Part shown: piece by piece, positions 28,034 to 58,296 of the stretch
How positions within the stretch are numbered: the first letter of the stretch is position 1
How the letters are laid out: each line of letters opens with the position of its first letter
NCBI GenBank assembly: GCA_040386075.1
Contig: JAZKGE010000027.1
Location: 171,403-235,402 of the forward strand
Direction: 5' to 3'
Length of the DNA stretch: 64,000 nucleotides
Source: Bacteroidota bacterium
GTDB lineage: Bacteria; Bacteroidota; Bacteroidia; B-17B0; Aurantibacillaceae
Notes under the pieces: generated by a model
Told to the model about the DNA's origin: nothing
Database searches by the model: none
What the model saw: the letters and a program-made list of their open reading frames with translations, nothing else
Program-made: the position numbers and the translations under genes

Positions 28034-28507
28034 TTATTCAGGTTGAAATTTAGTGTAGAGTTTGGCAGAAGCAATAATAAAAAAAGCTACTAAAGGCGAC
28101 TGAGCAATACCCATTAGCCAACGGCTAAAAGTATATTCATCTCCATTTAATTGATTATTTATGATATAGTTACAAGCCATTGAAATACCCGACAAAACTA
28201 ACAATATTGCGTATATATAAATAACCCATCGCGCATTTTTTTTATCAGCACAGATCAATTTGACGGCAAAATAGCCTGTAAACAGATAAGCTAAAAAGTA
28301 CAATATAGTTAGGGGGTATTTTAGATAATAGAGCGTTGAGTAATCAAAATGTGTGATAAGCTCTAAACAGGGAGGTATTTTTATGTCTTCATTGTGATAA
28401 TATAATTTGAATAGCTGGTTGTTAATGTTTACAAACAAGAACTCCCGGCTAAAACCTAAAAAGGCAAAAAGGCTAATGAATATGATATATTTAAGGCTTC
28501 TTTTCAC
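28034..28507 (-). CDS. exosortase F system-associated membrane protein (candidate)
   Basis: 157-aa protein with 4 predicted TM segments. Its start overlaps the 3' end of the xrtF-like gene by 17 nt. Size and position match my memory of the XrtF-associated family. No motif-level proof. Confidence 0.55.
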   Translation of the reverse strand: MKRSLKYIIFISLFAFLGFSREFLFVNINNQLFKLYYHNEDIKIPPCLELITHFDYSTLYYLKYPLTILYFLAYLFTGYFAVKLICADKKNARWVIYIYAILLVLSGISMACNYIINNQLNGDEYTFSRWLMGIAQSPLVAFFIIASAKLYTKFQPE

Positions 28508-29033
28508 TTTTTTTTGTACCTGAAAATTTGTTTACCCACAGCATCCATAAGCCAAACACAGCACTATAAGCTATAAAAGTAAAAGTATAAGTGTGATTGA
28601 AATCCAAGTAAGTATAATTGTATTTTGCTATCAGGGCAAGAGCAATGATGCGAAGGATATTGATGGTGTGCACGATCAATATTCCCAATGGCAGATACCA
28701 TGATTTATTTTTAACATTTCCGGGATAGGCAATTACGAATATTGCAAACAAAAACATGAGGGTAATACCGTTACAGGGTCCGCCTATCCATACGCCATTT
28801 GAACCATCAATGCCAAATACTTGAAAATCATTTACCTCTTTACTGGCAAAGGTTTTATAGCCCAAAAGGTCAAAAATCCATTTGCAGATATTTATAATTT
28901 CACGGATGAAAAGCTGATCACCACGTGTATTTCGCTTAATGATAAATTCGTATAAAAAATAGCAAAAACCATATAAAAATGCGGCCTTTAAAATAAAAAA
29001 GTGAAATTTATTGTTTTTGATTTTCGCTAACAT
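28491..29033 (-). CDS. xrtF: exosortase family protein, XrtF-like
   Basis: Polytopic. Candidate catalytic Cys (VWIGGPCNGITLMF), Arg (HTINILRIIAL) and His (LDFNHTY) occur in exosortase order. Start set to Met36 of the track ORF (MLAKIKNN, nt 29033), just after the 29038-29068 terminator. Confidence 0.7.
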   Translation of the reverse strand: MLAKIKNNKFHFFILKAAFLYGFCYFLYEFIIKRNTRGDQLFIREIINICKWIFDLLGYKTFASKEVNDFQVFGIDGSNGVWIGGPCNGITLMFLFAIFVIAYPGNVKNKSWYLPLGILIVHTINILRIIALALIAKYNYTYLDFNHTYTFTFIAYSAVFGLWMLWVNKFSGTKKSEKKP

Positions 29034-29037
29034 AAGT

Positions 29038-29068
29038 AAAAAACCCCCCGCCAGCTGGCGGGGGGTTT
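29038..29068 (-). terminator. strong GC-only rho-independent terminator/attenuator
   Basis: CCCCCCGCCAGCTGGCGGGGGG (perfect 22-nt palindrome, 29044-29065), followed on the minus strand by T6. The xrtF ATG lies 5 nt beyond the T-run. Confidence 0.75.
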
Positions 29069-29073
29069 GGATT

Positions 29074-29286
29074 TTATAATGAAGATTCTTTATGTTTTGA
29101 GTAAAGCTTTCTGCCACCATATATAGCTCCGGCAGCAATTAGTAACGATATACCGCCGTCGATTGGAACACACGGAGGAGGCCAGCAATCTGGACTACTT
29201 CCAGAAGGAGGAGGAGGTGGTAAAGCTACACAAAGAGTGGTAAAACCAACTATGAAAAATAATATAAACAAAAACTTCGTATTCAT
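29074..29286 (-). CDS. 70-aa secreted peptide ending in an exosortase-type sorting signal (P-I-D-G-G + TM + basic tail)
   Basis: MNTKFLFILFFIVGFTTLCVA | LPPPPPSGSSPDCWPPPCV | PIDGG ISLLIAAGAIYGG RKLYSKHK. Has its own terminator and sits next to xrtF. Confidence 0.65.
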   Translation of the reverse strand: MNTKFLFILFFIVGFTTLCVALPPPPPSGSSPDCWPPPCVPIDGGISLLIAAGAIYGGRKLYSKHKESSL

Positions 29287-31753: not shown

Positions 31754-32731
31754 ATGAATATCACCTCTGAAAAAATTGAAGATCTTTCCATACTAATAAC
31801 AGGTGGGGCAGGTTTTATAGGCTCTCATCTGGCAGAACATTTTGTGAAAGCTGGAGCAAAAAAAATTGTTGTTTTAGATGATCTAAGTACGGGTTTTGAA
31901 AAAAACATCAGTAAATTATTTAAACACGATAATTTTGAATTTATAAAGGGAAGTATTGTTGATCTGGTAACATGCAAACTTGCTTGTAAGGGAATTGATG
32001 TTGTACTGCATCATGCTGCCCTGGGATCGGTGCCACGTAGTATCGAAAATCCAATGGCAACTAATGAGGTAAATGTATCGGGTTTTGTTAATATGCTACA
32101 TGCATCCCATATTGCCGGAGTTAAAAAATTCATTTATGCGTCTTCTTCTTCTGTTTATGGAGATGATATGACTTTTCCAAAAACAGAATCCAAAACAGGG
32201 AATTTATTATCGCCTTATGCGGTTACCAAGCATACAAACGAAAAATATGCGTCTGTCTTCTCATCCTTGTATGGACTTAAAACCGTCGGATTTCGCTATT
32301 TTAATGTGTTTGGCGAAAGACAAAATCCAGCCGGTGCTTATGCCGCAGTTATACCTAAATTTATTGATAGTTTGTTAAATGATAAATCACCAACCATTTT
32401 CGGAACTGGCAATAACACACGCGATTTTACTTACGTTGGCAATGTTGTATTAGCAAATACACAGGCTGTTTTAAATAATAAAATATCTGGAGGAACTGTC
32501 ATGAATATCGCTTGCGGAGGTACTATTTCTGTGAATGATATTTTTAATCACATATCTGGTTTTTTAGCTGCCAGCTTAAAGCCTACTTATTGCCCTGAAA
32601 GAAAGGGAGAAATTAAAGATAGTTATGCAGATATATCCTATGCTAAAAATGGGCTTAACTATGAACCTCAAATCACAGTTATTGATGGTTTAGAGCGAAC
32701 TGTGGAGTGGTTTAAATCGCAAATGGCTTAA
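31754..32731 (+). CDS. NAD-dependent UDP-HexNAc(A) 4-epimerase, WbpP/TviC-like
   Basis: ITGGAGFIGSHL, PMATNEVNVSGFVNML, SSSSVYGDD, YAVTKHTNEKYA and RYFNVFGERQNPAGAYAAVIPKF closely follow the WbpP/TviC pattern I remember. Confidence 0.8.
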   Translation: MNITSEKIEDLSILITGGAGFIGSHLAEHFVKAGAKKIVVLDDLSTGFEKNISKLFKHDNFEFIKGSIVDLVTCKLACKGIDVVLHHAALGSVPRSIENPMATNEVNVSGFVNMLHASHIAGVKKFIYASSSSVYGDDMTFPKTESKTGNLLSPYAVTKHTNEKYASVFSSLYGLKTVGFRYFNVFGERQNPAGAYAAVIPKFIDSLLNDKSPTIFGTGNNTRDFTYVGNVVLANTQAVLNNKISGGTVMNIACGGTISVNDIFNHISGFLAASLKPTYCPERKGEIKDSYADISYAKNGLNYEPQITVIDGLERTVEWFKSQMA

Positions 32732-32753
32732 AAATTCTTTTTATTTCGTTCAA

Positions 32754-32778
32754 TTTTGAGTAAATTTGTTACTCAAAA
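32754..32778 (+). terminator. perfect 10-bp AT-rich hairpin after the epimerase gene (weak terminator or RNA element in the UpxY leader)
   Basis: TTTTGAGTAA-atttg-TTACTCAAAA. A second small hairpin ATGTGA-gaaaa-TCACAT lies at 32781-32797. No U-tract. Confidence 0.35.
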
Positions 32779-32926
32779 TAATGTGAGAAAATCACATCAA
32801 TTTACAAAGCTTGGTTAATAACTTATCATCTCTGCTTTGGATTAATGATGATTAAAATTCATATTTGGTAGTGTGATAATCAGGTCTCTTAGTCTATTGT
32901 GACTGAGGAGGCGAAGCTGTAAATGG

Positions 32927-33424
32927 ATGGGACAATGGTATGCAATATATGTTAATTCACGTGCCGAAAAAAAAGTAGTAAGCTTGTTAAATGCTAAAAA
33001 TATTGAAGCATATACACCAATTGTAAAGGTCATTAAACAATGGAGCGATCGTAAAAAAAGTGTTGAACTGCCTATTTTGAGCGGTTATGTTTTTGTAAGA
33101 GAAATTCAAACAGATCAGGATAAAATATTACAAACAAAAGGCGTGGTAAATTTTGTTAGATCCGATGGAAAAATGGCCATCGTGCGTGATATAGAAATTG
33201 AAAGACTAAAGCAACTGGTTCAGTTAGGTTACCAATTTGACACCTCACAAACCAACAAAATATACAGCAGGGGCGAAAAAGTGAAAATAACGTCTGGCGT
33301 ACTAAAAAACCTCGAAGGTTATGTCCTCGAAAATGAAGATGGTAAATTTATAGAAATAGTGTTGGAAAGCATTGGCCAGAGCATAAAAGCGAAATTACCA
33401 AAAGAGATATTGTTAAGTTCATAA
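32927..33424 (+). CDS. UpxY-family NusG-like transcription antiterminator
   Basis: WYAIYVNSRAEKKVVSLLNAKNIEAYTPIVKVIKQWSDRKKSVELPILSGYVFV (NGN domain) and KOW-like GEKVKITSGVLKNLEGYV. 165 aa. Confidence 0.8.
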   Translation: MGQWYAIYVNSRAEKKVVSLLNAKNIEAYTPIVKVIKQWSDRKKSVELPILSGYVFVREIQTDQDKILQTKGVVNFVRSDGKMAIVRDIEIERLKQLVQLGYQFDTSQTNKIYSRGEKVKITSGVLKNLEGYVLENEDGKFIEIVLESIGQSIKAKLPKEILLSS

Positions 33425-33432
33425 ATGAAATT

Positions 33433-35316
33433 ATGTTAACAGCATTAGGGAAATTATACAATAAAAAAATTGACGCAAGAGGGTTAGCTCTTTTCAGAAT
33501 AATTTATTCACTGGTATTGCTTGGTGAAGTTATTCAATTATTTTATTTCAGACATTTAATATATGACGTTGTTCCCAATGTTGAACTTTATGAAATAGAT
33601 GTAACTCCAGCGTTTATAGTTTGGATTATTTCGCTTATTTGCTTGGTATTTGGAGTCTTTACCAGAACAAGTGCAATCATTAACTATATCTGCTCTCTGT
33701 TTTTTATTGCTACAATCAAGTCCTATGAGTATCACATGTTTTATACTTATATGAGCATTAATTTTTTATTAATGTTTCTGCCGGTCTCAAGACAATGGTC
33801 ATTGGACAGATTATTTCAAAAGATCAAATATTCTAATACGAGGTTCGAATATATACCCCAAAAAGAGGTGTCCTCAATGGCCTATTTTATTCCGGTATTT
33901 ATTGGAATTGCTTTAGTGTATTTTGACTCGGTGCTATATAAATTAACGGACGATATGTGGTTAAAAGGCCTGGGAATATGGTTGCCAGCATCAATGCCTA
34001 TGACCACACAGGCTGCAGGCCATGCTGTTCTTAACCAGGAATGGCTGATGAAATTTTTAAGCCACTTTACAATTTTTTTCGAGTTTATATTTGTCTTTAT
34101 AATGTGGACTAAGCGTTTGCGTTGGTTTTGTGTTATTGTTGGTATAGGGTTGCACATTGGCATTTTGATAGAATTCCCTATTCCATTCTTTGCATTAGGT
34201 GTATGCGCAATTTACATACTTATGATGCCGGTAAGTATATATAGAAAGTTAAATAAATTTAAGATCAAAAACCCTAAATTGTTTTTTTATTACGACGCCG
34301 AGTGTCCTTTATGTGTAAGGACAAAAATAGTTATTCAACATTTCGATATCCTGAAGGCCGTTTCATTCTTATCAATACAGGGTCACGCAAAAAACCAGCC
34401 GGCATTAGATAGGATTGAAGAAGAAAAATTATACCAGGATATTTATAGTGTATCAAAAACAGGAAAAGTTTATAATGGAGTAAACACTTATATACAAGTA
34501 TTTAATGTTATTTTTTATTTTAAGCCTATATCATGGCTCTTAAGGATACCCGGAATTTATCATCTTGCTAAATTTGTTTATGCAAAAATTGCAAATGAAA
34601 GAGAAACCGAACGCTGTACTGAAGATACATGTGGTTACACTCCTCCTGTTGTACCTCAAAATAACAATGAAATAAAGCTATTAAAAACTTTTTCAGTTAA
34701 CGACTTGTACAGAAAAATAGTTGTAGGTTTCTTTTTAATACTCATTGCTCTTCAGTGTTTAGTATCGTTAAACTCACCACTAATAGTAAATGCCCGAAAA
34801 GCAGTAAAACTTAAAAATTCAGTTGTTGGAAAACATATTTCAAGTGTGAGTAATAACGTAAATAAAAATGCTAAAATATGGTTAGGTATAACTCACCATA
34901 GCCTATTTATGAAAACTCATTTTGATGAGTATGAACACATAATTAGTGTTAGTTATTGTAATAAAAAGTCAGGATTACAGAGATTGCCTATAATGGATGA
35001 ACATGGTATGCCTGGCAGTTATTTGTATGGATTTAATTGGGCTAAATGGACATTTAGAACCAATAGCCCCAAAATAGATAGTGTAAAATTAAGTTCGGGG
35101 ATACGATCTTTCACAGCATTTTGGGCACAAAAAAATAATGTCAGCTTATTAAACGATTCATTTATAGTTTTCGTTAAAAAAGTTCAGATACCTACCGGCT
35201 GGCAACGTGATTTTTTAAGAACCCAACTTTCTAAGTCAACGTGGATAGACGCCGGCAAAATTTATTGGAAGAATAAGTCCTATTATTCTAATATAAAAAA
35301 TATTGAAACGTTATAG
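33433..35316 (+). CDS. fusion protein: HTTM (vitamin-K-dependent gamma-carboxylase-like) membrane domain + DCC/DUF393-type CxxC thiol-disulfide oxidoreductase + unknown C-terminal domain
   Basis: IDARGLALFRIIYSLVLLGEVIQLFYF plus about 8 further hydrophobic spans (HTTM-like). FFYYDAECPLCVRTKIVIQHFD (DCC motif). One more TM (VVGFFLILIALQCLVSL), then about 200 aa of unknown family. Confidence 0.6.
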   Translation: MLTALGKLYNKKIDARGLALFRIIYSLVLLGEVIQLFYFRHLIYDVVPNVELYEIDVTPAFIVWIISLICLVFGVFTRTSAIINYICSLFFIATIKSYEYHMFYTYMSINFLLMFLPVSRQWSLDRLFQKIKYSNTRFEYIPQKEVSSMAYFIPVFIGIALVYFDSVLYKLTDDMWLKGLGIWLPASMPMTTQAAGHAVLNQEWLMKFLSHFTIFFEFIFVFIMWTKRLRWFCVIVGIGLHIGILIEFPIPFFALGVCAIYILMMPVSIYRKLNKFKIKNPKLFFYYDAECPLCVRTKIVIQHFDILKAVSFLSIQGHAKNQPALDRIEEEKLYQDIYSVSKTGKVYNGVNTYIQVFNVIFYFKPISWLLRIPGIYHLAKFVYAKIANERETERCTEDTCGYTPPVVPQNNNEIKLLKTFSVNDLYRKIVVGFFLILIALQCLVSLNSPLIVNARKAVKLKNSVVGKHISSVSNNVNKNAKIWLGITHHSLFMKTHFDEYEHIISVSYCNKKSGLQRLPIMDEHGMPGSYLYGFNWAKWTFRTNSPKIDSVKLSSGIRSFTAFWAQKNNVSLLNDSFIVFVKKVQIPTGWQRDFLRTQLSKSTWIDAGKIYWKNKSYYSNIKNIETL

Positions 35317-35348
35317 TACTCAGGTTTGCAAAATTTAGTGAATATTAT

Positions 35349-35513
35349 ATGCATTTATATGTTCCCATCCTCAAATTCAGGCTTTCAGCTGTGTTTTTAT
35401 TTTTTGTGATAGCTTCAACCATTTTGCTCAGTCACTTATCATATAAATACTTTGAATCATATTTTCTAAAGTTCAAATTAAAATACACGTTGGTAAATTC
35501 AGGTCAAAACTAA
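35349..35513 (+). CDS. possible 54-aa single-TM small protein (below ORF-track cutoff)
   Basis: ATG 35349. Hand translation MHLYVPILKFRLSAVFLFFVIASTILLSHLSYKYFESYFLKFKLKYTLVNSGQN. Its TAA (35511-35513) abuts the GTG start of the next gene. Confidence 0.25.
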   Translation: MHLYVPILKFRLSAVFLFFVIASTILLSHLSYKYFESYFLKFKLKYTLVNSGQN

Positions 35514-36350
35514 GTGAAAATATTAATTACGGGCATATCAGGTTTTCTGGGAAATTATTTGTTTAATAACTGGACGAGTAATGACTTTCTATGGGGGATC
35601 ACTCAATCTAACACGCCCATCAACAATAATCTTAATTTTCCGTTATACAATATCTCAGAGCTAGATAAAATTGAACAACCTGACGTTGTAATTATGTGCC
35701 ACGCAGTTATTTCAAATAGTAAAACAAAGGCTTCAAATGAAAATTTATTTGAGGGAAATGTTTTATATACCGAAAAGATCAGGAGAAAATTTCCACAGGC
35801 ATATTTCATTTATACCTCTACAGTTTCTGTTTATTCTCAGGAGGAAGAACGTATAACTGAAGAATCAAGTATAAAACCCTCCAATGGTTATTCAATTTCA
35901 AAGTACTGGGGAGAATTAACTTTTAAAGACAGTAATGCAGGCATTATTCGATTCTCGTCGCTGTATGGAAATGGTATGACTGAAGGAACCATAATTCCAA
36001 ATTATGTAAATATGGCTTTGGATAAAAATGTAATTGAAGTATGGGGAAATGGAAGCCGGATGCAGAACTATCTTCATATTAAAGATGCTAAAAATTATAT
36101 TGAGGCTTTAGCAGTTAAAAAGCTAAACGGTATTTTTTTGGGCATTAATAGTGTCGAAAATAGTAATATCGAATTAGCAAAAATCGTTTCTGAAAAAACA
36201 GGCGCTGAAATTAGATTTATTAACGAAGATAACTCAGTGTCGGTTAAGTATAACAATGAATATACCTTATCCAAATTAAACATGTCACCTGGAGTAAAAT
36301 TTAGTAAGGGAACAGAAGACTATATTGTATGGAAGCAAAAACAGTTTTAG
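35514..36350 (+). CDS. NAD(P)-dependent SDR-family sugar epimerase/reductase (short, RmlD-like size)
   Basis: GTG start gives MKILITGISGFLGNYL (Rossmann motif at the N-terminus). YSISKYW is a YxxxK catalytic motif. Confidence 0.7.
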   Translation: MKILITGISGFLGNYLFNNWTSNDFLWGITQSNTPINNNLNFPLYNISELDKIEQPDVVIMCHAVISNSKTKASNENLFEGNVLYTEKIRRKFPQAYFIYTSTVSVYSQEEERITEESSIKPSNGYSISKYWGELTFKDSNAGIIRFSSLYGNGMTEGTIIPNYVNMALDKNVIEVWGNGSRMQNYLHIKDAKNYIEALAVKKLNGIFLGINSVENSNIELAKIVSEKTGAEIRFINEDNSVSVKYNNEYTLSKLNMSPGVKFSKGTEDYIVWKQKQF

Positions 36351-37303
36351 TTACAGGAATTGGCGGTAACGTTGGTCAGGGGATTTTAAGAAATATCTCT
36401 TCTTTAAATTATCCAATCAGGTTAGTTGGAACAAACACAATTGAGTTCACTGCTGGAAATCACTTGGTAGATGCCTTTTATAAGACACCTTTTGCCTACG
36501 ATACAGATTTTTTAAAAATAGTCATTGATATTATCAGTAAAGAAAAAGTTGACCTGGTAATTCCCTCTACAGATTACGAATCATATTACCTGGCATTAAA
36601 CTCAGACAAACTGCCATGTAAATTAGCAACGTCAAGTAGTAATGCTACAGGGATTTACTTAGATAAATTTTTAACATGGCAATTTCATCACAAACACAAT
36701 ATTAGTTTTGCAGAAAGCATATTGCCTAGTGCATATCAACAAAGTTTTAGTAAGGCAATTGCTAAGCCAAGAAAAGGACGAGGTTCAAGAGGCTTGATCA
36801 AAAATGTTAAAGATGTTTCCGGATTATCAGACGAAGAATACATGGTGCAGGAACAAATCGACGGCAATGAAATTACAACAGCAGTTTATAACAGTTATTT
36901 AACCGGCGAAGTGATAGGCCTTATTACTATGGAACGCACATTGGATAATGGTGCCACTAACTATTGTCGGGTTATTACTACCTATGATGATGAATTGCTT
37001 AAAATGGCAAAATTAATGACTGAAAAATTAAATTTGAAGGGAGCATATAATATTCAGTCAATTGTAAATAACAACAATGAGATTGTTCCATTTGAAATAA
37101 ATTGTCGCATATCAGGAACAAATTCTATCAGATCAAATTTTGGATTCAAAGATGTCAAGTATACAATTGATGAATTACTGTATAATATAAAGCCTGAAAA
37201 TCCTGTGATCATAAAAGGAGAAGCTCACCGCATATTGTTAGATGTGATTTATTCTGAAGGAACAAATAATGGTAACAATAAAGATAATTTTTTAATTTTT
37301 TAA
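36329..37303 (+). CDS. ATP-grasp domain protein
   Basis: VLVTGIGGNVGQGILRNI pre-ATP-grasp domain. KPRKGRGSRGL P-loop-like segment, EYMVQEQIDGNEIT, and PFEINCRISG near the C-terminus follow ATP-grasp ligase topology. Confidence 0.7.
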   Translation: MEAKTVLVTGIGGNVGQGILRNISSLNYPIRLVGTNTIEFTAGNHLVDAFYKTPFAYDTDFLKIVIDIISKEKVDLVIPSTDYESYYLALNSDKLPCKLATSSSNATGIYLDKFLTWQFHHKHNISFAESILPSAYQQSFSKAIAKPRKGRGSRGLIKNVKDVSGLSDEEYMVQEQIDGNEITTAVYNSYLTGEVIGLITMERTLDNGATNYCRVITTYDDELLKMAKLMTEKLNLKGAYNIQSIVNNNNEIVPFEINCRISGTNSIRSNFGFKDVKYTIDELLYNIKPENPVIIKGEAHRILLDVIYSEGTNNGNNKDNFLIF

Positions 37304-37304
37304 T

Positions 37305-37940
37305 ATGCATCTCTTACTTGACGCTGCAAATACGATAATTTACAAACCCAAATTTTATACAACGTTTGTTGATGTTGTAAATGCAAACGCTCAAACAAAT
37401 ATTGAAATAGAGGAGTTAAGCAAAATTCATAAGATTATTTCAGAATGTTTTACTTTTCCGGATAAAACTTCAAAAGAATTTTATTACGATTTTAATAAAG
37501 AGTTATTGTATGCTTTTGGTATAGTTCCTAGCGCTGCACTTTTAAATACATTGTTCACAAGCTGTTCTTATTTACCCTGGGAAAAATACGAAGATACAAA
37601 ATGGCTTAATGAAATTAATTGTGAAAAGTCGGTTCTGTCAAATTTTCATAATGGACTTAAGGATATTATGGAGTTATTATTTCCTGGACAGTTTCAATCG
37701 CTTACTATTTCCGAAAATGAAAACTGTCGTAAACCTGATGTCAATTTTTATTTAGCTGCAGTAAAAAAATTAGATATTGATCCCTCCGAGATAGTTTATG
37801 TTGGCGATTCAGTTAAACTTGATCTTGAGCCTGCAATGGCTGTTGGGATGAAAGCATTTCTGATCGACAGAGGAAATTACTACCCTCATTGTCGACATCG
37901 TATTTCGAGTTTCCGAGATTTAGCCGAAAAAATTAAGTAA
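37305..37940 (+). CDS. HAD-superfamily hydrolase (subfamily IA-like), atypical motif I
   Basis: Motif I LLDAANTII (D-A-A-N-T instead of DxDxT), motif III-like RKPD, motif IV VGDSVKLDLEPA. Confidence 0.6.
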   Translation: MHLLLDAANTIIYKPKFYTTFVDVVNANAQTNIEIEELSKIHKIISECFTFPDKTSKEFYYDFNKELLYAFGIVPSAALLNTLFTSCSYLPWEKYEDTKWLNEINCEKSVLSNFHNGLKDIMELLFPGQFQSLTISENENCRKPDVNFYLAAVKKLDIDPSEIVYVGDSVKLDLEPAMAVGMKAFLIDRGNYYPHCRHRISSFRDLAEKIK

Positions 37941-38866
37941 TGAAAAAATTATCGTTAGTAGTACCCGTTTATTTTGAGGAAGAATGTATTCTGCAATTTA
38001 TTGCAGAAACAACAACAGTTTTAAATAAACTTGATTTGGAATGGGAAATAGTTTTTATTGATGATGGAAGTAAAGATAATACGGTTGAATTAATAAAATC
38101 AAAATCTGTCCAGGAGTCACGGATCAAATTAATAGAGTTTTCCTACAATCATGGTAAACAAATGGCGGTATCAGCAGGCATAAAACATGCAACCGGCGAT
38201 TACTTGTTGTATATGGATCCCGATCTGCAAGATCCTCCGGATGAAATACCTTTATTTGTTAACGAAATTGAAAAAGGTTATGATTTGGTATTTGGCATCA
38301 GAAAAGAAAAAATAGATTCTGTTCTTAATAAATTTTATTCTAAAATATTTTGGGGCACCCTTAATAAATTTACAGGATTGGAAATACCTAAAGGGCTTGC
38401 TGTGATGCGTATTTTTAACCGACGGTTTGCCGATAAATTTTTGGAATATGCAGAAACCAATCGTTTTATAGAAGGAATTTTCATGCATATCGGCATGAAG
38501 CGTAGCCAAATAGAAATTTCTCAACGTAAACGATTTGCAGGGACAAGCAAGTTTAATTTCAAGAAGAAAATGCAACTCGCATTTGATGCAATTTTTGACT
38601 TTTCAGAACTTCCTTTAAAGATGGCTTTGAAACTTGGGGTCTTAATTGCCTTATTAGGCTTTCTTGCTTTATTTGTAATTTTCATTCTTAAGGTGTTTTT
38701 TATTGATTTTGCATTAGGTTGGCCATCACTTATCTCTGCTATTACGGTTAGTTTAGGTCTTCAATTATTTTTTACTGGAGTGGCAGCGATTTACATCGGT
38801 AAAATATACCGGGAAGTTAAAGGAAGACCACTTTTTTCAGTTAAAGAACTCACTAATTTAAATTGA
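37940..38866 (+). CDS. GT2 polyprenyl-phosphate glycosyltransferase (ArnC/GtrB/DPM1-like)
   Basis: LSLVVPVYFEEECI, FIDDGSKDNT and MDPDLQDPP, plus two C-terminal TM helices, the ArnC/GtrB architecture. Confidence 0.85.
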   Translation: MKKLSLVVPVYFEEECILQFIAETTTVLNKLDLEWEIVFIDDGSKDNTVELIKSKSVQESRIKLIEFSYNHGKQMAVSAGIKHATGDYLLYMDPDLQDPPDEIPLFVNEIEKGYDLVFGIRKEKIDSVLNKFYSKIFWGTLNKFTGLEIPKGLAVMRIFNRRFADKFLEYAETNRFIEGIFMHIGMKRSQIEISQRKRFAGTSKFNFKKKMQLAFDAIFDFSELPLKMALKLGVLIALLGFLALFVIFILKVFFIDFALGWPSLISAITVSLGLQLFFTGVAAIYIGKIYREVKGRPLFSVKELTNLN

Positions 38867-39501
38867 AGAAACTAGCTATTATAGGGGCCGGAGACCTGGG
38901 GGATTTGATCTCCTACCATGCAACGCAAGACGGACATTATCATGTTGTTGGTTTTTATGATGATTATGCGGCTAAAGGCTCCGTATTAAACAACATTGAG
39001 GTGCTAGGTAAAATAGCAGAATTGGAGGAACATTTTTCAAAAGGAATTTTTGATGTGTTAATGATAGGTGTTGGATATAATCACATGTCATTCAGAAAAA
39101 CGTTGTTCGAAAAGTATGATCATAAAATTCCATTCGGAAACATAATACACTCTTCAGCCTTTGTTGACCCATCTGTAAAATTGGGAACCGGAGTTTTTAT
39201 TTTACCTGGCTGCACGCTCGATAAGAGCGTAGTCATAGGAAATAATGTATTATTAAACACCTCTGTTTGCATAGCACACGATACTACTATTGGCGATCAT
39301 TGTTTTTTATCGCCCAGAGTAAGCATTGCAGGTAAAACACATATAAAGCACAGCTGTGTTCTTGGAATTAACTCAACTATTATTGATAACATAAATATTG
39401 AACCCGAAATAAAGATAGCCGCCGGTACGGTTGTTATTAAAAGCCTCACTCAAAAAGGATTATATGCGGGCGTGCCTGCGATATTTAAAAAAGAACTATG
39501 A
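38863..39501 (+). CDS. PglD/NeuD-family sugar N-/O-acetyltransferase (left-handed beta-helix)
   Basis: N-terminal KKLAIIGAGDLGDLI Rossmann-like subdomain, then hexapeptide repeats (IGNNVLLNTSVCIAHDTTIGDHCFLSPRVSIAG). TTG start overlaps the upstream stop. Confidence 0.75.
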   Translation: MKKLAIIGAGDLGDLISYHATQDGHYHVVGFYDDYAAKGSVLNNIEVLGKIAELEEHFSKGIFDVLMIGVGYNHMSFRKTLFEKYDHKIPFGNIIHSSAFVDPSVKLGTGVFILPGCTLDKSVVIGNNVLLNTSVCIAHDTTIGDHCFLSPRVSIAGKTHIKHSCVLGINSTIIDNINIEPEIKIAAGTVVIKSLTQKGLYAGVPAIFKKEL

Positions 39502-40634
39502 TTACATTCAATAAACCTTATTTAACAGGTAAAGAAAACGATTATATTGCTGGAGCGGTTGCCAGTATGAAAATTTCAGGCGATGGAAATTATACTAAAA
39601 TGTGCCATAAATTTTTTGAAGAAAAGTATGGCTTTAAAAAAGTACTTCTAACCACGTCCTGTACCGATGCCTTAGAAATGGCAGCATTATTACTGGATAT
39701 AAAAGAAGGGGATGAGGTCATCGCACCATCATATACATTTGTATCTACAGTAAACGCATTTGTTTTGCGTGGAGCCAAAATAGTATTTGTGGATAGTGGT
39801 AGTGATAATCCGAACATGGATGTTAGTGCTATTGAAGCATTGATCACCGACAGAACAAAAGTTATCTTGCCTGTGCATTATGCTGGTATAGCCTGTAACA
39901 TGACAAGGATCATGGAAATAGCCGATAAACATGATTTGTTTGTTGTGGAAGACGCTGCACAGGCTATTGATTCATATTACAAGGATAGACCGTTAGGGTC
40001 TATAGGTCACTTATCAGCCTTTTCATTCCACGAAACAAAAAATATCATTTCTGGTGAAGGTGGTATGTTAGTTATTAATGATGAACGTTTTATTAAACGT
40101 GCAGAAATAATTCGGGAAAAAGGAACAAATCGTTCTTCATTTTTTAGAGGCGAAGTTGACAAGTATGGCTGGGTTGACCTTGGTTCATCATTTTTGCCTT
40201 CAGACATAATTGCGGCATTCTTATTTGCTCAGCTTGAAAACCTGGATGATATTCAACAAAAACGAAAGACTATTTGGGATCAATATAACCAGGGTTTAAA
40301 AAAACTTAGTGATAACGGTAAATTAAAATTACCGCTTATTCCTCGTGACGCAACTAATAATGCTCATATGTATTATGTTATTTGCAAAAATTTAGATGAG
40401 CGAACCCGGTTGATCAAACATCTTAAGGAGAGTGACATTCATGCGGTTTTTCACTATCTCAGTCTGCACAAAAGCCCTTATTATTTAACAAAACACGATG
40501 GTCGTGTACTTAGTAATTCTGATTATTATTCCGAAAGCCTTCTCAGACTTCCCTTTTATTTCGAATTAAATAAGGAGCAGGTAAACAGTGTAGTTGATAG
40601 CATTAATTCATTTTATAATGAACAGCCTCAATAA
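39498..40634 (+). CDS. DegT/DnrJ/EryC1-family PLP aminotransferase, WecE (dTDP-4-amino-4,6-dideoxyhexose transaminase)-like
   Basis: FNKPYLTGKENDYI, TSCTDALEMAALLL, and SFHETKNIISGEGGML with the PLP lysine, as in WecE. Confidence 0.85.
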   Translation: MITFNKPYLTGKENDYIAGAVASMKISGDGNYTKMCHKFFEEKYGFKKVLLTTSCTDALEMAALLLDIKEGDEVIAPSYTFVSTVNAFVLRGAKIVFVDSGSDNPNMDVSAIEALITDRTKVILPVHYAGIACNMTRIMEIADKHDLFVVEDAAQAIDSYYKDRPLGSIGHLSAFSFHETKNIISGEGGMLVINDERFIKRAEIIREKGTNRSSFFRGEVDKYGWVDLGSSFLPSDIIAAFLFAQLENLDDIQQKRKTIWDQYNQGLKKLSDNGKLKLPLIPRDATNNAHMYYVICKNLDERTRLIKHLKESDIHAVFHYLSLHKSPYYLTKHDGRVLSNSDYYSESLLRLPFYFELNKEQVNSVVDSINSFYNEQPQ

Positions 40635-42327
40635 CTGGTATAACCCCAAAAAGCTACCTGGTATTATAATGATAATATCATTAGTTGTGTTTTTTTTATA
40701 CTTGTCACCATTCTTTATATATGGTGAAATGGTACATATATGGCCTTATGATAATTTAAATTCAAATGTGGTATGGAATAAAATCATAGCACAAAGTGGT
40801 AGTATTTTTTCATCTAATGAAACTATTATTCCAAATATTATGGGGGGCGTACCACGTAGTTGTTTTTATTGTTCGGAATTTAGTGCATTACTTTGGTTGT
40901 ATTATTTTTTCTCACCATTTACTGCTTATGTGTTAAACATTGTACTGTTGCATTCCGTTGCTTTTTTCGGAGCCTATATGTTGAGTAAAAAGTATTTTTT
41001 GAAAGATCAATCTTATTTATTTGCCTTCCCGGTTGCCCTGTGTTTTGCCTTAATCCCTTTTTGGTCTCCGGCATGTTTAAGTATTGCAGGGCAGCCATTG
41101 TTACTGTATGCACTTTTTAACATCAAGACAAAAGATTCAAGTTATTTAGATTGGCTTATTGTTATGTTGTTTCCATTATTCTCCTTTTTTGCATTTAGTA
41201 CTTTGTTTTTTATTGTTGCTATCGGCTTATTTTTTATATACGATACTATCAGATATAAAAAAATCAATATCGCTTTTTTTATGGCCATTTCGCTCTTATT
41301 GGTTATGTGCATACTTGCCGAGTATAGACTATTTATAAGTTTTTTTATTAAGCCATCTTATGTATCTCACCGGGTTGAATTCCAGTTGGATGAAAGACCA
41401 TTAACTTTCATTGAGGTACTTAAAACAACGGTTGAAGCATTTAAAACAGGACAGCATCACGCCAGTTCTTTACACTATCCTATTTTATGTGTTATAGTTC
41501 TAATAGCTTTAGTTGTTGGGTTTATAAAGAAAAGTAAATATCTAAAACCAGTGATTTATTTGCTTATGGTTGCCGGCTCAATTATGCTGTTTTATAAGCT
41601 TACAAATTGGGGAGTGTATGTCGAAAAAACAAGAGGCAACAAGCTGTTAACTGAATTTAAGATCGAAAGGTTTTATACGTTGTATCCATTAATATGGTTG
41701 TTGATTCTTTCTGCCTCCGTTTTTATCGTGGCCACATTTAAAAATAGAGTACTAAATGGCGTGATCTTTATTTTGCTTTCTGCTCAAATTGCATATCTGT
41801 TTTCTAATTCTATAGAATTTAAATACTCACTACGGGATTATGTTTTGCATTCTAAAGATGTTCCTTCTAAATATAAAACATTTAGAGAGTTTTATTCTGA
41901 AGATTTATTTACAAAAATTAAAACTATTATAGGAAAGCCTCAATCTGAATATAGGGTTGTTAACCTTGGGGTTGATCCAGCTATTACTGCCTATAATGGT
42001 TTTTATACGTTAGATATGTATATGGCAGTTTATCCCCTGGACTACAAGAAAAAATTCAGAAGAATTATGGAAAAGGAATTAGATAAGGATAATGCCAAAA
42101 GGAAAACGTTTGACAATTGGGGAAGCCAATGCTACTTGATTTCATCAGAAATTGCTAAGCCAGAAATTGATAATTTGGAATTAAATTTTGATATGCTTAA
42201 AGAAATGAACTGCCAGTTTATTTTTTCAGTTCGGAAAATAAATAATGCATCAGAAAATTTAAGTTTTGTATCCAAAGTACCCGGAAACAGATATCTTAAA
42301 TATATTTATGTGTATAAAGTTATATGA
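40618..42327 (+). CDS. large polytopic membrane protein (about 12 TM + soluble C-terminal domain), unknown family; candidate GT-C-like transferase or polymerase
   Basis: About 570 aa with hydrophobic spans over the first approx 400 aa and a soluble tail (YRVVNLGVDPAITAYNGFYTLDMYMAVYP...). Start set to ATG 40618, overlapping the WecE-like stop. Confidence 0.55.
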   Translation: MNSLNNWYNPKKLPGIIMIISLVVFFLYLSPFFIYGEMVHIWPYDNLNSNVVWNKIIAQSGSIFSSNETIIPNIMGGVPRSCFYCSEFSALLWLYYFFSPFTAYVLNIVLLHSVAFFGAYMLSKKYFLKDQSYLFAFPVALCFALIPFWSPACLSIAGQPLLLYALFNIKTKDSSYLDWLIVMLFPLFSFFAFSTLFFIVAIGLFFIYDTIRYKKINIAFFMAISLLLVMCILAEYRLFISFFIKPSYVSHRVEFQLDERPLTFIEVLKTTVEAFKTGQHHASSLHYPILCVIVLIALVVGFIKKSKYLKPVIYLLMVAGSIMLFYKLTNWGVYVEKTRGNKLLTEFKIERFYTLYPLIWLLILSASVFIVATFKNRVLNGVIFILLSAQIAYLFSNSIEFKYSLRDYVLHSKDVPSKYKTFREFYSEDLFTKIKTIIGKPQSEYRVVNLGVDPAITAYNGFYTLDMYMAVYPLDYKKKFRRIMEKELDKDNAKRKTFDNWGSQCYLISSEIAKPEIDNLELNFDMLKEMNCQFIFSVRKINNASENLSFVSKVPGNRYLKYIYVYKVI

Positions 42328-55875: not shown

Positions 55876-55883
55876 ATTTAAAC

Positions 55884-58292: not shown

Positions 58293-58296
58293 ATTA

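What the first reader, a model, noticed from the sequence alone, without database searches (positions are those of the whole stretch)
33433..35316. Gamma-carboxylase-like HTTM domain fused to a DCC-type CxxC oxidoreductase, as first gene after the UpxY antiterminator
Seen: one 627-aa ORF combines three parts. First is a polytopic N-terminal region starting IDARGLALFRIIYSLVLLGEVIQLFYF. Second is FFYYDAECPLCVRTK. Third is another TM followed by an unassignable tail of about 200 aa. It starts 9 nt after the UpxY-like gene. Established: HTTM is the bacterial family homologous to the vertebrate vitamin-K-dependent gamma-glutamyl carboxylase. DCC/DUF393 proteins are putative thiol-disulfide oxidoreductases with an N-terminal CxxC. 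In animals the carboxylase depends on a separate thiol-driven quinone reductase (VKOR). Inference: the fusion could be a self-contained quinone or thiol redox-coupled modifying enzyme. A glycan locus is an unexpected place for it, since such loci normally encode only sugar enzymes and transporters. Possible targets are a Glu- or Asp-rich envelope protein or the glycan itself. I know of no function for bacterial HTTM proteins in polysaccharide loci.
Basis: partly seen in the sequence, partly recalled or inferred. Interest (0 to 1): 0.65.

Follow-up and report, generated by a model that had tools for sequence, protein, structure and literature searches.

The report
Carboxylase-like membrane enzyme in glycan cassette
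[quoted passage not shown] Its relatives almost always sit beside the genes that make one unusual amino sugar, which suggests that bacteria use vitamin-K-type chemistry to modify surface sugars.

Summary
Window 33433..35316 (+) is one intact 627-aa ORF with Pfam HTTM (res 10-265) and DCC1-like (res 286-391, C291-P-L-C294) above curated cut-offs. Its ATG lies 9 nt after the UpxY gene.

It is not an assembly artefact. More than 120 full-length homologues (44-53% identity) exist across aerobic Bacteroidota.

An AlphaFold model (pLDDT 88.8, pTM 0.87) matches only human gamma-glutamyl carboxylase (GGCX) in the PDB. GGCX His160, Lys218 and Trp223 align with invariant H101, K170 and W176.

The "unassignable tail" (TM9 plus about 180 aa) always accompanies HTTM, including in a roughly 500-aa sister class that lacks DCC. 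DCC is therefore an insertion in the cytoplasmic TM8-TM9 loop. By the positive-inside rule the CxxC lies on the opposite membrane face from the active site.

The glycan setting is the rule, not the exception. In 69-70 of 80 related loci the gene sits within six genes of an ATP-grasp or WbqC ligase and of a VioB/PglD-type acetyltransferase or WecE-type aminotransferase. UpxY adjacency is unique to this window.

My best reading, which is inferred, is a menaquinol- and O2-driven modification, probably carboxylation, of the acyl side chain of a 4-amino-4,6-dideoxyhexose at the periplasmic face. No paper in the searched library links HTTM to glycan loci.

The parts
32927..33424 (+). UpxY-family (NusG-like) transcription antiterminator gene, immediately upstream
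   Evidence: NCBIfam NF033644 137.4 bits (cut-off 100) and Pfam NusG. Adjacency to the HTTM gene is unique to this window.
33433..35316 (+). Whole 627-aa ORF: GGCX-like membrane enzyme with an inserted DCC1-like domain
   Evidence: ORF; Pfam; AF2 model pLDDT 88.8, pTM 0.87; Foldseek top 16 PDB hits are all human GGCX.
33460..34227 (+).
   Evidence: Pfam PF05090. Helices from the model. Local Foldseek alignment to GGCX: 287 columns, rmsd 4.2 A.
33733..33735 (+). Codon of invariant His101, aligned with GGCX His160; periplasmic loop 3, motif (E)YH
   Evidence: hhalign and MAFFT agree. Invariant in A1 and A3.
33940..33960 (+). Codons K170 to W176 (KLTDDMW), aligned with GGCX K218 to W223 (KLDADW). 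[quoted passage not shown]
   Evidence: K170, W176 and G179 are invariant. The role of Lys218 is taken from PMC12647623.
34288..34605 (+). DCC1-like thioredoxin-fold domain (res 286-391), inserted in the cytoplasmic TM8-TM9 loop
   Evidence: Pfam PF04134 E 7e-16. Replaced by a short linker in the DCC-less sister class. Flanking loop is rich in K/R, net +4.3.
34303..34314 (+). CPLC redox motif (C291, C294)
   Evidence: Read from the sequence. Both Cys and the Pro are invariant in 32 homologues.
34615..34632 (+). Second invariant cysteine pair C395 and C400 (RCTEDTC), just beyond the Pfam DCC match
   Evidence: Invariant in A1. Function is inferred only.
34696..34767 (+). TM9 (res 422-445), which carries the chain back to the periplasm
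   Evidence: Helix 422-445 in the model. Invariant Q441.
34768..35316 (+). Periplasmic C-terminal domain (res 446-627) with invariant G485, H489, F492, H496, Y500. Occupies the position of the GGCX lumenal domain.
   Evidence: Conserved in A1, A2 and A3. Profile search finds it only C-terminal to HTTM, with or without DCC. The tail-only model has GGCX as its top 7 PDB hits, but weakly (E 6e-3).
35319..35513 (+). Relic of the 3' end of an acyltransferase-3 gene, filling the spacer before the next gene
   Evidence: blastx to AT3 proteins of related loci, E 2e-11 to 1e-9, aligned to their last 40-90 residues. AT3 is the gene immediately after HTTM in 10 of 80 loci.
35514..37940 (+). Short SDR/epimerase-like protein (35514-36350), ATP-grasp ligase (36329-37303) and HAD phosphatase (37305-37940): the commonest companion trio
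   Evidence: Pfam and NCBIfam. The same order follows the HTTM gene in about 36 of 80 loci.
37940..38866 (+). ArnC/PgfS-like GT2, a polyprenyl-phosphate glycosyltransferase type
   Evidence: NCBIfam PgfS 233 bits and ArnC-type PRK10714 182 bits, both below the equivalog cut-offs; Pfam GT2.
38863..40634 (+). NeuD/PglB/VioB-family sugar N-acetyltransferase (38863-39501) and WecE-type dTDP-4-amino-4,6-dideoxyhexose aminotransferase (39498-40634)
   Evidence: TIGR03570 178 bits (cut-off 160.8); NF008687 580 bits (cut-off 375). Present near the HTTM gene in 68 and 60 of 80 loci respectively.
40594..42327 (+). DUF6044 polytopic membrane protein; possible partner
   Evidence: Pfam PF19510 497.7 bits. 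Adjacent to a DCC-less HTTM+tail gene in L081, but found in only 1 of 80 Bacteroidota loci.

Best explanation
Architecture. [quoted passage not shown] It has nine TM helices, a periplasm-facing pocket and a three-helix cap. H101, K170 and W176 align with GGCX His160, Lys218 and Trp223. After TM9 comes a small periplasmic domain. A DCC1-like CPxC thioredoxin-fold domain is inserted into the cytoplasmic TM8-TM9 loop.

Genomic setting. The protein is a fixed member of a cassette that makes an N-acylated or aminoacylated 4-amino-4,6-dideoxyhexose. The cassette holds a WecE/VioA-type aminotransferase, an ATP-grasp or WbqC ligase, and a VioB/PglD-type or GNAT N-acetyltransferase.

Proposed mechanism (inferred).
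1. The sugar is delivered to the periplasmic face on a lipid carrier. This happens either as a polyprenyl-phosphate sugar made by the ArnC-like GT2, or inside a flipped repeat unit.
2. The enzyme then oxygenates menaquinol with O2, as GGCX does, to generate a strong base.
3. That base removes a proton next to a carboxyl or carbonyl group of the sugar's acyl side chain. The carbanion is most likely trapped with CO2, giving a malonate-type, metal-binding group. The precedent is MloH, which alpha-carboxylates an aspartyl unit.
4. The cytoplasmic DCC domain, with its invariant CPxC and the C395/C400 pair, is proposed to use cytoplasmic thiol reductant to regenerate menaquinol from the quinone or its epoxide.

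What is shown: the architecture, the residue conservation, the charge-based topology and the gene association. What is inferred: the cofactor, the substrate, the carboxylation and the DCC role.
For: - Pfam HTTM and DCC1-like both score above their cut-offs.
- The AF2 model is confident (pLDDT 88.8, pTM 0.87). The top 16 Foldseek PDB hits are all human GGCX (E 5e-7 to 8e-3, prob 1.0). The next hit has E 0.23.
- hhalign and MAFFT both align H101, K170, W176, G179 and R78 with GGCX H160, K218, W223, G226 and R136. Apart from R78, which is nearly invariant in the 32-sequence alignment only, these are invariant in the 32-sequence alignment and in the alignment that includes DCC-less relatives at 31-36% identity.
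- GGCX has nine TMs, a three-helix cap over vitamin K, and a substrate pocket made of lumenal loops 3, 7 and 9 (PMC12647623). The model has the same helix count and three short helices between TM5 and TM6.
- Loop charges give an N-in topology, with net +2.6, +4.3 and +4.3 on the inside loops and -1.6, -1.0 and -0.7 on the outside loops.
- The tail domain occurs in 454 cluster representatives, always C-terminal to HTTM, with or without DCC.
- Neighbourhood: 69 of 80 loci have an ATP-grasp or WbqC gene, and 70 of 80 an acetyltransferase or aminotransferase, within six same-strand genes. The same cassette surrounds DCC-less homologues in two further large genomes outside the set of 80 loci. One of them also carries RmlA, an RmlB-like dehydratase/epimerase and DUF6044.
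- The aminotransferase scores 580 bits on the dTDP-4-amino-4,6-dideoxygalactose transaminase model.
- MloH is a bacterial GGCX relative that alpha-carboxylates aspartate in a small molecule (PMC12186529).
- HTTM plus DCC fusions recur in Firmicutes, which argues for functional coupling (bioRxiv 10.64898/2026.08.19.745780).
- A malonylamino form of this sugar type (Qui4NMal) is known in nature, in the E. coli K10 capsule (PMC10433991).
- All named hosts are aerobic, menaquinone-using Bacteroidota. The aerobic and menaquinone point rests on my own knowledge.
Against: - There is no biochemical evidence here for a cofactor, a substrate or a product.
- The CxxC is predicted on the opposite membrane face from the active site, so direct reduction in the pocket is impossible. 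The quinone would have to move between leaflets.
- DCC is absent from a sister class that sits in the same cassette, so it is not required for the core reaction.
- GGCX Asn159 is Tyr100 here. The equivalents of Phe299 (the CO2 site) and Tyr395 could not be fixed: MAFFT gives F253 for F299, but hhalign -glob is offset by 4.
- HTTM phylogeny does not follow the type of ligase. This argues against recognition of one particular acyl group.
- The Leptospira GGCX orthologue is reported to epoxidise vitamin K without carboxylating (my own knowledge; Rishavy et al. 2005). Conserved residues therefore do not prove carboxylation.
- The tail-to-GGCX lumenal domain match is weak (E 6e-3, prob 0.41).
Confidence: 0.4

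Rival explanations
1. Quinone-linked thiol oxidoreductase with no carbanion chemistry. The HTTM domain only binds menaquinone, and the DCC CxxC exchanges electrons with it, much as in DsbB, VKOR or DoxX-type systems. The role would be to keep a partner enzyme of the glycan pathway, or the local quinone pool, in the right redox state.
For: DCC1-like domain with an invariant CPxC and a second invariant Cys pair. The HTTM-DCC fusion recurs in other phyla. A plant DCC protein is a core plastoglobule protein, and plastoglobules are a prenylquinone compartment (PMC12587418; the prenylquinone point is my own knowledge). JGI names some homologues as DoxX/SURF4-family membrane proteins.
Against: A sister class in the same cassette has no DCC and no cysteine pair, yet keeps every invariant HTTM and tail residue. 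The residues kept are those of the GGCX oxygenation and substrate pocket, on the periplasmic side and away from the CxxC. No redox-dependent partner is evident among the conserved neighbours.
Confidence: 0.2
2. The GGCX-like isoprenoid pocket binds the polyprenyl-phosphate-linked sugar rather than menaquinone. The protein would then flip, present or otherwise process the lipid-linked sugar, for example by epimerisation or de-acylation, taking roughly the place of ArnD or ArnE/F in an Arn-like pathway.
For: In GGCX the pocket holds an isoprenyl tail. The window and about 38 of 80 loci carry an ArnC/PgfS-like GT2 nearby. The compact cassette in L081 (RmlA, an RmlB-like dehydratase/epimerase, DegT, WbqC, GNAT, GT2, HTTM, DUF6044) resembles the Arn layout and has no annotated flippase.
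Against: About half the loci have no ArnC-like GT2 in the cassette. They carry a WecF-like GT56 and a Wzx flippase instead, which means cytoplasmic incorporation. Invariance of the Lys218, His160 and Trp223 equivalents is hard to explain without quinone oxygenation. Small SMR-like candidate flippases are present in some loci (cluster 29; family assignment is my reading of the sequence, not a search result).
Confidence: 0.15
3. It is a protein carboxylase, as in animals. It would modify Glu or Asp residues of a secreted or envelope protein, and its place in a glycan operon would reflect only co-regulation.
For: GGCX fold and catalytic residues. SdpB-type HTTM proteins of Bacillus act in peptide maturation (my own knowledge; there is a weak TIGR04033 hit of 22 bits).
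Against: No conserved small ORF or protein gene accompanies the family. The conserved neighbours are all sugar-nucleotide and glycan enzymes. The only small ORF after the gene in this window is an acyltransferase relic. The periplasmic domain is about 180 aa against roughly 350 aa in GGCX, so the two propeptide clamps cannot both be present. The SdpB model scores far below its cut-off, 22 against 178 bits.
Confidence: 0.07
4. The fusion is an assembly or frameshift artefact, or a chance ORF.
For: None found.
Against: More than 120 collinear full-length homologues from independent genomes. 215 confirmed relatives were found in one-genome-per-species contigs. Both domains score above the Pfam cut-offs. 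The AF2 model is confident across all three parts.
Confidence: 0.01

Closest known systems
[quoted passage not shown]
   Same: It is the only fold match in the PDB. Both have nine TM helices, a three-helix cap after the catalytic Lys, an active site on the non-cytoplasmic face, and TM9 followed by an extracytoplasmic domain. His160, Lys218, Trp223 and Gly226 correspond to invariant H101, K170, W176 and G179.
   Different: Sequence identity is 10-16%. The extracytoplasmic domain is about 180 aa rather than about 350, so the propeptide clamps are not both present. Asn159 is Tyr here. A DCC1-like domain replaces the short cytoplasmic TM8-TM9 loop. The gene context points to a sugar substrate, not a protein. 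The expected cofactor is menaquinone. Activity is untested.
MloH, the GGCX relative of malonomycin biosynthesis (Law et al. 2018, cited in PMC12186529 and PMC12647623)
   Same: It is a bacterial HTTM enzyme acting on a non-protein substrate. It alpha-carboxylates an aspartyl unit to give an aminomalonate moiety, which is the closest precedent for carboxylating an acyl side chain. Its HTTM region is fused to a TM-plus-domain module.
   Different: It comes from an actinomycete natural-product cluster, not a glycan cassette. No DCC domain is reported.
Firmicute HTTM + DCC1-like protein (447 aa) paired with a DUF5819 protein (bioRxiv 10.64898/2026.08.19.745780)
   Same: It has the same HTTM-then-DCC order. 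A partner consisting of a TM helix plus a domain completes a GGCX-like assembly in AlphaFold 3. In the window protein the analogous TM9 plus tail is fused in cis.
   Different: It is a two-gene system. The window's tail has no Pfam DUF5819 match even at E <= 10. The context of the Firmicute pair is not reported as glycan. No function is known there either.
DCC1-like / DUF393 proteins (B. subtilis YuxK, Arabidopsis DCC1)
   Same: Pfam match above cut-off, with the N-terminal CxxC in the family's typical position.
   Different: Here it is an internal domain of a polytopic membrane protein. It has an extra invariant Cys pair (C395, C400) just beyond the Pfam match. It is dispensable in a sister class.
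VKOR and bacterial VKOR-thioredoxin fusions
   Same: Conceptually both involve cysteine pairs that recycle a naphthoquinone for, or alongside, a carboxylase or oxidase.
   Different: There is no homology. The VKOR CxxC is membrane-embedded on the same (lumenal or periplasmic) side as the GGCX site (my own knowledge). Here the CxxC is in a soluble-type domain predicted to be cytoplasmic.
Arn (L-Ara4N lipid A modification) and Pgf/Gtr-type periplasmic glycosylation pathways
   Same: The cassette logic is shared: an aminotransferase, N-acylation, an ArnC/PgfS-like polyprenyl-phosphate GT2 and large polytopic membrane proteins.
   Different: The sugar is a dTDP-derived 4-amino-4,6-dideoxyhexose. 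Arn, Pgf and Gtr have no GGCX-like component. About half the related loci use a WecF-like GT56 instead of the GT2.

Membership tests
HTTM / GGCX superfamily | Significant match to the Pfam HTTM profile over its full length | tested here: met
   PF05090, 35.2 bits against cut-off 27.7, profile positions 1-255 of 259.
HTTM / GGCX superfamily | GGCX-type fold: nine TM helices with a three-helix cap | tested here: met
   AF2 model pLDDT 88.8. The top 16 Foldseek PDB hits are all GGCX, prob 1.0. Nine long helices and three short helices at res 174-200 match the description in PMC12647623.
HTTM / GGCX superfamily | Catalytic base Lys218, plus His160 and Trp223 | tested here: met
   K170, H101 and W176 align by two methods and are invariant.
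HTTM / GGCX superfamily | CO2-stacking Phe299 and substrate-binding Asn159 and Tyr395 | tested here: inconclusive
   MAFFT aligns invariant F253 with F299 and H241 with H287, but hhalign -glob is shifted by 4. Asn159 is Tyr100. The Tyr395 equivalent is not assignable.
HTTM / GGCX superfamily | Lumenal domain with two propeptide-binding clamps | tested here: not met
   The periplasmic domain is about 180 aa. Tail-only Foldseek hits GGCX first but weakly, E 6e-3 and TM 0.21. hhalign against GGCX 350-740 is not significant.
HTTM / GGCX superfamily | Vitamin K hydroquinone- and O2-dependent epoxidase/carboxylase activity | not testable with these tools
   Needs biochemistry.
DCC1-like (DUF393) thiol-disulfide oxidoreductases | Pfam PF04134 match with the N-terminal CxxC | tested here: met
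   59.9 bits against cut-off 27.8, profile positions 2-108 of 113. C291-P-L-C294 is invariant.
DCC1-like (DUF393) thiol-disulfide oxidoreductases | Thioredoxin-like fold | tested here: inconclusive
   Only weak glutaredoxin matches in the whole-protein Foldseek search (E 1.6-4.5, TMt 0.40-0.46). The domain was not searched on its own.
DCC1-like (DUF393) thiol-disulfide oxidoreductases | Thiol-disulfide exchange activity | not testable with these tools
   Needs biochemistry.
SdpB family (TIGR04033) | Score above the NCBIfam cut-off | tested here: not met
   22.3 bits against cut-off 178.4.
DUF5819 (partner of Firmicute HTTM-DCC proteins) | Pfam match in the tail | tested here: not met
   No Pfam family at E <= 10 for res 410-627.
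UpxY-led capsule operon (first structural gene) | The gene family regularly follows upxY | tested here: not met
   UpxY-like genes lie within 10 kb in 5 of 80 loci, 3-8 genes upstream, and are never adjacent.
4-amino-4,6-dideoxyhexose N-acyl cassette (defined here) | Co-location with a WecE/VioA-type aminotransferase, a VioB/PglD-type or GNAT acetyltransferase, and an ATP-grasp or WbqC ligase | tested here: met
   The window carries all three. Figures for the 80 loci: 69/80 ligase, 70/80 AcT or AmT, 58/80 both AcT and AmT. The same is seen in L081 and L082.

The most novel reading that the evidence does not exclude
Bacteroidota, and some Planctomycetota-like genomes, would use a menaquinone-driven GGCX-type enzyme to carboxylate a sugar-borne acyl or aminoacyl group after export. 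This would place Gla-, aminomalonate- or malonyl-type calcium-binding groups on O-antigens or capsules. It would be the first vitamin-K-type carboxylation of a carbohydrate. Such groups could have been missed because malonate-type acids lose CO2 during the hot acid steps used to release and analyse polysaccharides, just as Gla was long missed in proteins (my own knowledge).
Probability: 0.2. Interest if true: 0.9.

Novelty: new variant of a known kind. Interest (0 to 1): 0.72.

Why it matters
- What bacterial HTTM/GGCX relatives do has been open since the domain was named in 2004. Only one, MloH, has a demonstrated substrate.
- This family gives that question a concrete, testable setting. The enzyme is hard-wired into a defined sugar cassette in hundreds of genomes, many of them culturable and genetically tractable, such as Flavobacterium, Chryseobacterium, Pedobacter and Chitinophaga.
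- If the enzyme does modify the glycan, vitamin-K-type chemistry would extend from proteins and one antibiotic to carbohydrates.
- It would also add a new, probably metal-binding, determinant to surface antigens of fish and opportunistic pathogens.
- It would explain why a thiol-redox domain is repeatedly fused to HTTM.
- Even without the chemistry, database names should change. The family is currently called only "DCC1-like thiol-disulfide oxidoreductase", which hides the larger GGCX-like enzyme.

Tried and rejected
- Sequence searches of the PDB, with the protein and with a 32-sequence profile, found no GGCX match. Only fold comparison did.
- Pfam on the tail alone at E <= 10 found nothing, so no DUF5819 match.
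- hhalign of the tail profile against GGCX 350-740 was not significant.
- Tail-only structure search: GGCX ranks first to seventh, but at E 6e-3 to 0.1. I treat this as suggestive only.
- hhalign -glob and MAFFT disagree by four residues in TM7-TM8, so the F299 and H287 equivalences are left open.
- I tested whether HTTM sequences co-diversify with the ligase type (ATP-grasp type 1, type 2 or WbqC). Nearest-neighbour concordance is 48 of 75 against 29 when shuffled. However, the tree mixes types within genera, for example Maribacter L025 against L026 and Epilithonimonas inside the Chryseobacterium group. I therefore reject substrate-specific co-evolution.
- I tested DUF6044 as an obligate partner. 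It was found in only 1 of 80 Bacteroidota loci (L052) besides the window, and also in L081, so it is not obligate.
- The sigma-70 promoter and terminator scan of 32600-35600 was no better than shuffled sequence. It shows no terminator between the gene and its neighbours. The scan does not model Bacteroidota promoters.
- Literature searches for HTTM with DCC, polysaccharide, O-antigen or Flavobacterium, and for HTTM alone, found no paper linking HTTM to glycan loci.
- One paper (PMC12701776) could not be read.
- The frameshift or artefact explanation is rejected.


Full report

Yes. The ORF list gives one uninterrupted frame at 33433..35316 (+), ATG start, 627 aa. The DNA reads as described.
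- Pfam finds DCC1-like (PF04134, res 286-391, E 7.1e-16, 59.9 bits, cut-off 27.8).
- Pfam also finds HTTM (PF05090, res 10-265, E 1.3e-08, 35.2 bits, cut-off 27.7), covering nearly the full profile.
- The gene before it, 32927..33424, is a UpxY-family antiterminator (NF033644, 137 bits, cut-off 100). The spacer is 8 nt.
- The last 218 residues match no Pfam family even at E <= 10.

**2. Is the fusion genuine?**

A search of 5.8 billion proteins returned more than 120 homologues of 617-652 aa. They cover 97-100% of the query at 44-53% identity. Hosts include Flavobacterium, Chryseobacterium, Pedobacter, Sphingobacterium, Chitinophaga, Leeuwenhoekiella and Zobellia. Where named, they are called "DCC1-like thiol-disulfide oxidoreductase family protein". 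A 32-sequence alignment is conserved end to end (mean column identity 58%), with invariant residues in all three parts. A scan of one genome per species confirmed 215 relatives. A frameshift artefact is excluded.

**3. What is the protein?**

- *Model.* AlphaFold2 with that alignment gives a confident model (mean pLDDT 88.8, pTM 0.87). It has nine long helices, three short helices at res 174-200, an alpha/beta domain at 283-388, and a mixed alpha/beta C-terminal domain.
- *Fold match.* Against 350,542 PDB chains, the 16 best matches are all human GGCX (E 5e-7 to 8e-3, probability 1.0). The next hit has E 0.23. Sequence-only searches of the PDB miss this.
- *Residue mapping.* I first confirmed a recalled GGCX sequence as 100% identical to the PDB chain. 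Profile alignment and an independent MAFFT alignment then both align H101, K170, W176, G179 and R78 with GGCX H160, K218, W223, G226 and R136. The local motif is VYFDSVLYKLTDDMW against VYFIAGVKKLDADW.
- *Roles in GGCX.* Lys218 deprotonates vitamin K hydroquinone. His160 binds the substrate carboxyl. Mutating Trp223 or Phe299 cripples activity (PMC12647623).
- *Conservation.* H101, K170 and W176 are invariant in the family, including in relatives at 31-36% identity.
- *Open points.* MAFFT also pairs invariant H241 and F253 with GGCX H287 and F299, but hhalign -glob is shifted by four residues. I leave the CO2-site equivalence open. GGCX Asn159 is Tyr100 here.

**4. The "unassignable tail".**

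- A profile of the tail (TM9 plus the domain) was searched against 1.84 billion representatives. It finds 454 proteins (373 at E <= 1e-10).
- The complete-looking hits fall into two length classes, about 620-640 aa and about 485-540 aa (shorter hits look like truncated genes). In both, the match sits at the C-terminal end.
- Pfam shows that the shorter class is HTTM plus tail with no DCC. In an alignment, the DCC domain is cleanly replaced by a 15-30 residue linker, while every invariant HTTM and tail residue is kept.
- The tail is therefore an integral part of the HTTM enzyme. It occupies the place of GGCX TM9, lumenal loop 9 and the lumenal domain. DCC is an insertion in the TM8-TM9 loop.
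- A tail-only model (pLDDT 76) again has GGCX as its seven best PDB matches, but only at E 6e-3 to 0.1. Sequence comparison with the GGCX lumenal region is not significant. At about 180 aa, the tail cannot contain both GGCX propeptide clamps.

**5. Topology.**

Across 32 homologues, the mean net charge of the loops alternates.

| Segment | Net charge | Predicted side |
|---|---|---|
| N-terminus | +2.6 | in |
| Loop 1 | -1.6 | out |
| Loop 3 (EYH) | -1.0 | out |
| Loop 4 | +4.3 | in |
| Loop 5 (K170 and cap) | -0.7 | out |
| After TM8 | +4.3 | in |

- This is the GGCX topology, with nine TMs and the pocket made from lumenal loops 3, 7 and 9.
- It places the CPLC of the DCC domain in the cytoplasm and the catalytic residues and tail in the periplasm.
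- The DCC part of this family also carries a second invariant cysteine pair, C395 and C400, just beyond the Pfam match.

**6. Genomic setting.**

- *Method.* I called and clustered ORFs in 80 related loci of about 22 kb each.
- *Position.* The gene nearly always lies in a same-strand glycan operon. It is followed by one of three arrangements:
  - SDR, ATP-grasp, HAD, optionally GT2, then acetyltransferase and aminotransferase, as in the window;
  - a second ATP-grasp type, then acetyltransferase and aminotransferase;
  - WbqC, optionally GT2 and a methyltransferase-like ORF (my reading of its sequence; not scanned), then acetyltransferase and aminotransferase.
- *Counts.* Within six same-strand genes:
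  - 69 of 80 loci have an ATP-grasp or WbqC gene;
  - 70 of 80 have the acetyltransferase or the aminotransferase;
  - 58 of 80 have both.
  - Several of the exceptions are cut contigs.
- *Annotations.*
  - The window's aminotransferase scores 580 bits on the dTDP-4-amino-4,6-dideoxygalactose transaminase model (cut-off 375).
  - The acetyltransferase is NeuD/PglB/VioB family.
  - The GT2 resembles ArnC and PgfS.
  - The other companions are ATP-grasp, WbqC, acyltransferase-3 and a WecF-like GT56.
- *Other phyla.* DCC-less homologues sit in the same kind of cassette.
  - L081 is a compact island: GT2, GNAT, WbqC, HTTM+tail, then DUF6044, RmlA and an RmlB-like dehydratase/epimerase on the other strand, then DegT.
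  - L082 has DegT, HTTM+tail, ATP-grasp, GT2 and a PglD-like gene.
- *UpxY.* By contrast, UpxY lies within 10 kb in only 5 of 80 loci and is never adjacent.

**7. What the setting implies.**

- The constant companions make a 4-amino-4,6-dideoxyhexose whose amine is acylated by a ligase and then N-acetylated. This chemistry gives the N-acyl and N-acetyl-aminoacyl Qui4N or Fuc4N residues known from O-antigens (PMC3210612, PMC7685785).
- The sugar can enter the glycan by two routes. One is through an ArnC-like GT2. The other is through a cytoplasmic GT56 with a Wzx flippase. The GGCX-like protein accompanies both routes.
- Its sequence tree does not follow the ligase type. It therefore probably acts on a shared feature of the sugar after export, at the periplasmic face where its pocket lies.

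**8. Most likely mechanism (inferred).**

1. Menaquinol, the quinone of these aerobic Bacteroidota (my own knowledge), is deprotonated by K170 and oxygenated.
2. The resulting strong base removes a proton next to a carboxyl or carbonyl group of the sugar's side chain, which H101 helps to hold.
3. The carbanion is trapped by CO2.

- Precedents exist for this chemistry. MloH alpha-carboxylates an aspartyl unit of a small molecule. A malonylamino form of this sugar type, Qui4NMal, occurs in the E. coli K10 capsule.
- The DCC domain would regenerate menaquinol from the cytoplasmic side. The recurrence of HTTM-DCC fusions in Firmicutes supports functional coupling. Its absence from a sister class shows that it is accessory.
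- I put 0.4 on this overall reading and about 0.2 on carboxylation of the glycan specifically.

**9. Rivals.**

- A purely redox role (0.2).
- A lipid-carrier handling or other non-quinone role (0.15).
- A protein substrate (0.07). There is no conserved substrate gene, and the only small ORF next to the gene is an acyltransferase relic.
- An artefact (about 0).

**10. Novelty.**

Full-text searches found no paper connecting HTTM or GGCX-like proteins with polysaccharide loci. The nearest item is a 2026 preprint on a Firmicute HTTM-DCC/DUF5819 pair of unknown function. The family exists in databases under a name that describes only its small inserted domain. I rate it a new variant of a known kind: a GGCX-type enzyme in a new setting with a new domain arrangement. 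It has a realistic chance of revealing a new substrate class.

Noticed in passing
window 35319-35513: The 197-nt spacer after the gene is not empty. One frame reads ...MHLYVPILKFRLSAVFLFFVIASTILLSHLSYKYFESYFLKFKLKYTLVNS*. This matches the last 40-90 residues of acyltransferase-3 proteins, which lie right after the HTTM gene in 10 of 80 related loci (blastx E 2e-11). It is a relic of a deleted O-acyltransferase gene. Its stop overlaps the GTG start at 35514.
   Followed up: yes
L035, L040, L048, L059, L074 (about 8-15.7 kb in each locus): Two or three full-length HTTM-DCC-tail paralogues (621-643 aa) sit in tandem in some Saprospiraceae, Chitinophagaceae and unclassified Bacteroidota loci. This suggests diversification of specificity, or several modifications.
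   Followed up: partly
window 40594-42327; L081 9589-11397; L052 2037-3713: A DUF6044 polytopic membrane protein (Pfam 498 bits) follows the aminotransferase in the window. One also lies next to the DCC-less HTTM+tail gene in L081. It occurs in only 1 of 80 Bacteroidota loci, so it may be an ArnT-like transferase used by one sub-type of the cassette. Its function is unknown.
   Followed up: partly
window 32753-32797: Just after the stop of gene 31754-32731 there is a perfect 11-bp inverted repeat, ATTTTGAGTAA/TTACTCAAAAT, with a 5-nt loop. A second 6-bp hairpin follows (ATGTGA-gaaaa-TCACAT). TAAATTTG at 32761-32768 fits the Bacteroidota -7 promoter motif TAnnTTTG. The region could be a terminator, a promoter for upxY, or both. 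This is read and was not tested. The sigma-70 scan was uninformative.
   Followed up: no
window 29391-63943: A single-strand gene run of more than 34 kb makes up the glycan locus:
- a Wzc-like co-polymerase/tyrosine kinase ending in a (YG)n tail, and UpxY;
- a Wzm/Wzt ABC exporter (42892, 43749);
- PseB- and PseC-like genes;
- three NeuB-family synthases (52484, 60136, 61802), the one at 60136 fused to a cytidylyltransferase;
- a 667-aa protein with three GNAT domains (49779), and a PIG-L deacetylase;
- a heptose-type PfkB/SIS/cytidylyltransferase set (56912-59650).
Several large ORFs have no Pfam match at the thresholds used (E <= 1e-05 for the first two, <= 0.001 for the last): 45057-46871, 55854-56897, 42344-42877.
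   Followed up: partly
window 34615-34632 (C395, C400): An invariant RC-x4-C pair lies just after the DCC domain, outside the Pfam model. With CPxC this gives four conserved cysteines, which recalls the loop pair plus CxxC of VKOR. Whether ordinary DCC proteins share the pair was not checked.
   Followed up: no
L061 and L072; L081 and L082: A few family members are in bins labelled Glaciecola (Gammaproteobacteria) and Planctomycetaceae. DCC-less members are in two large genomes of 6.5 and 7.9 Mb. Among 80 loci and 120 proteins, no hit came from a named anaerobic Bacteroidales genus. That would fit an O2-requiring reaction, but the sample is limited.
   Followed up: partly
window 28034-29138 (- strand): Two overlapping small polytopic membrane ORFs (157 and 215 aa) lie upstream of the locus on the opposite strand and have no Pfam match. 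Their look and position recall exosortase-type pairs of Flavobacteria. This is my impression only.
   Followed up: no
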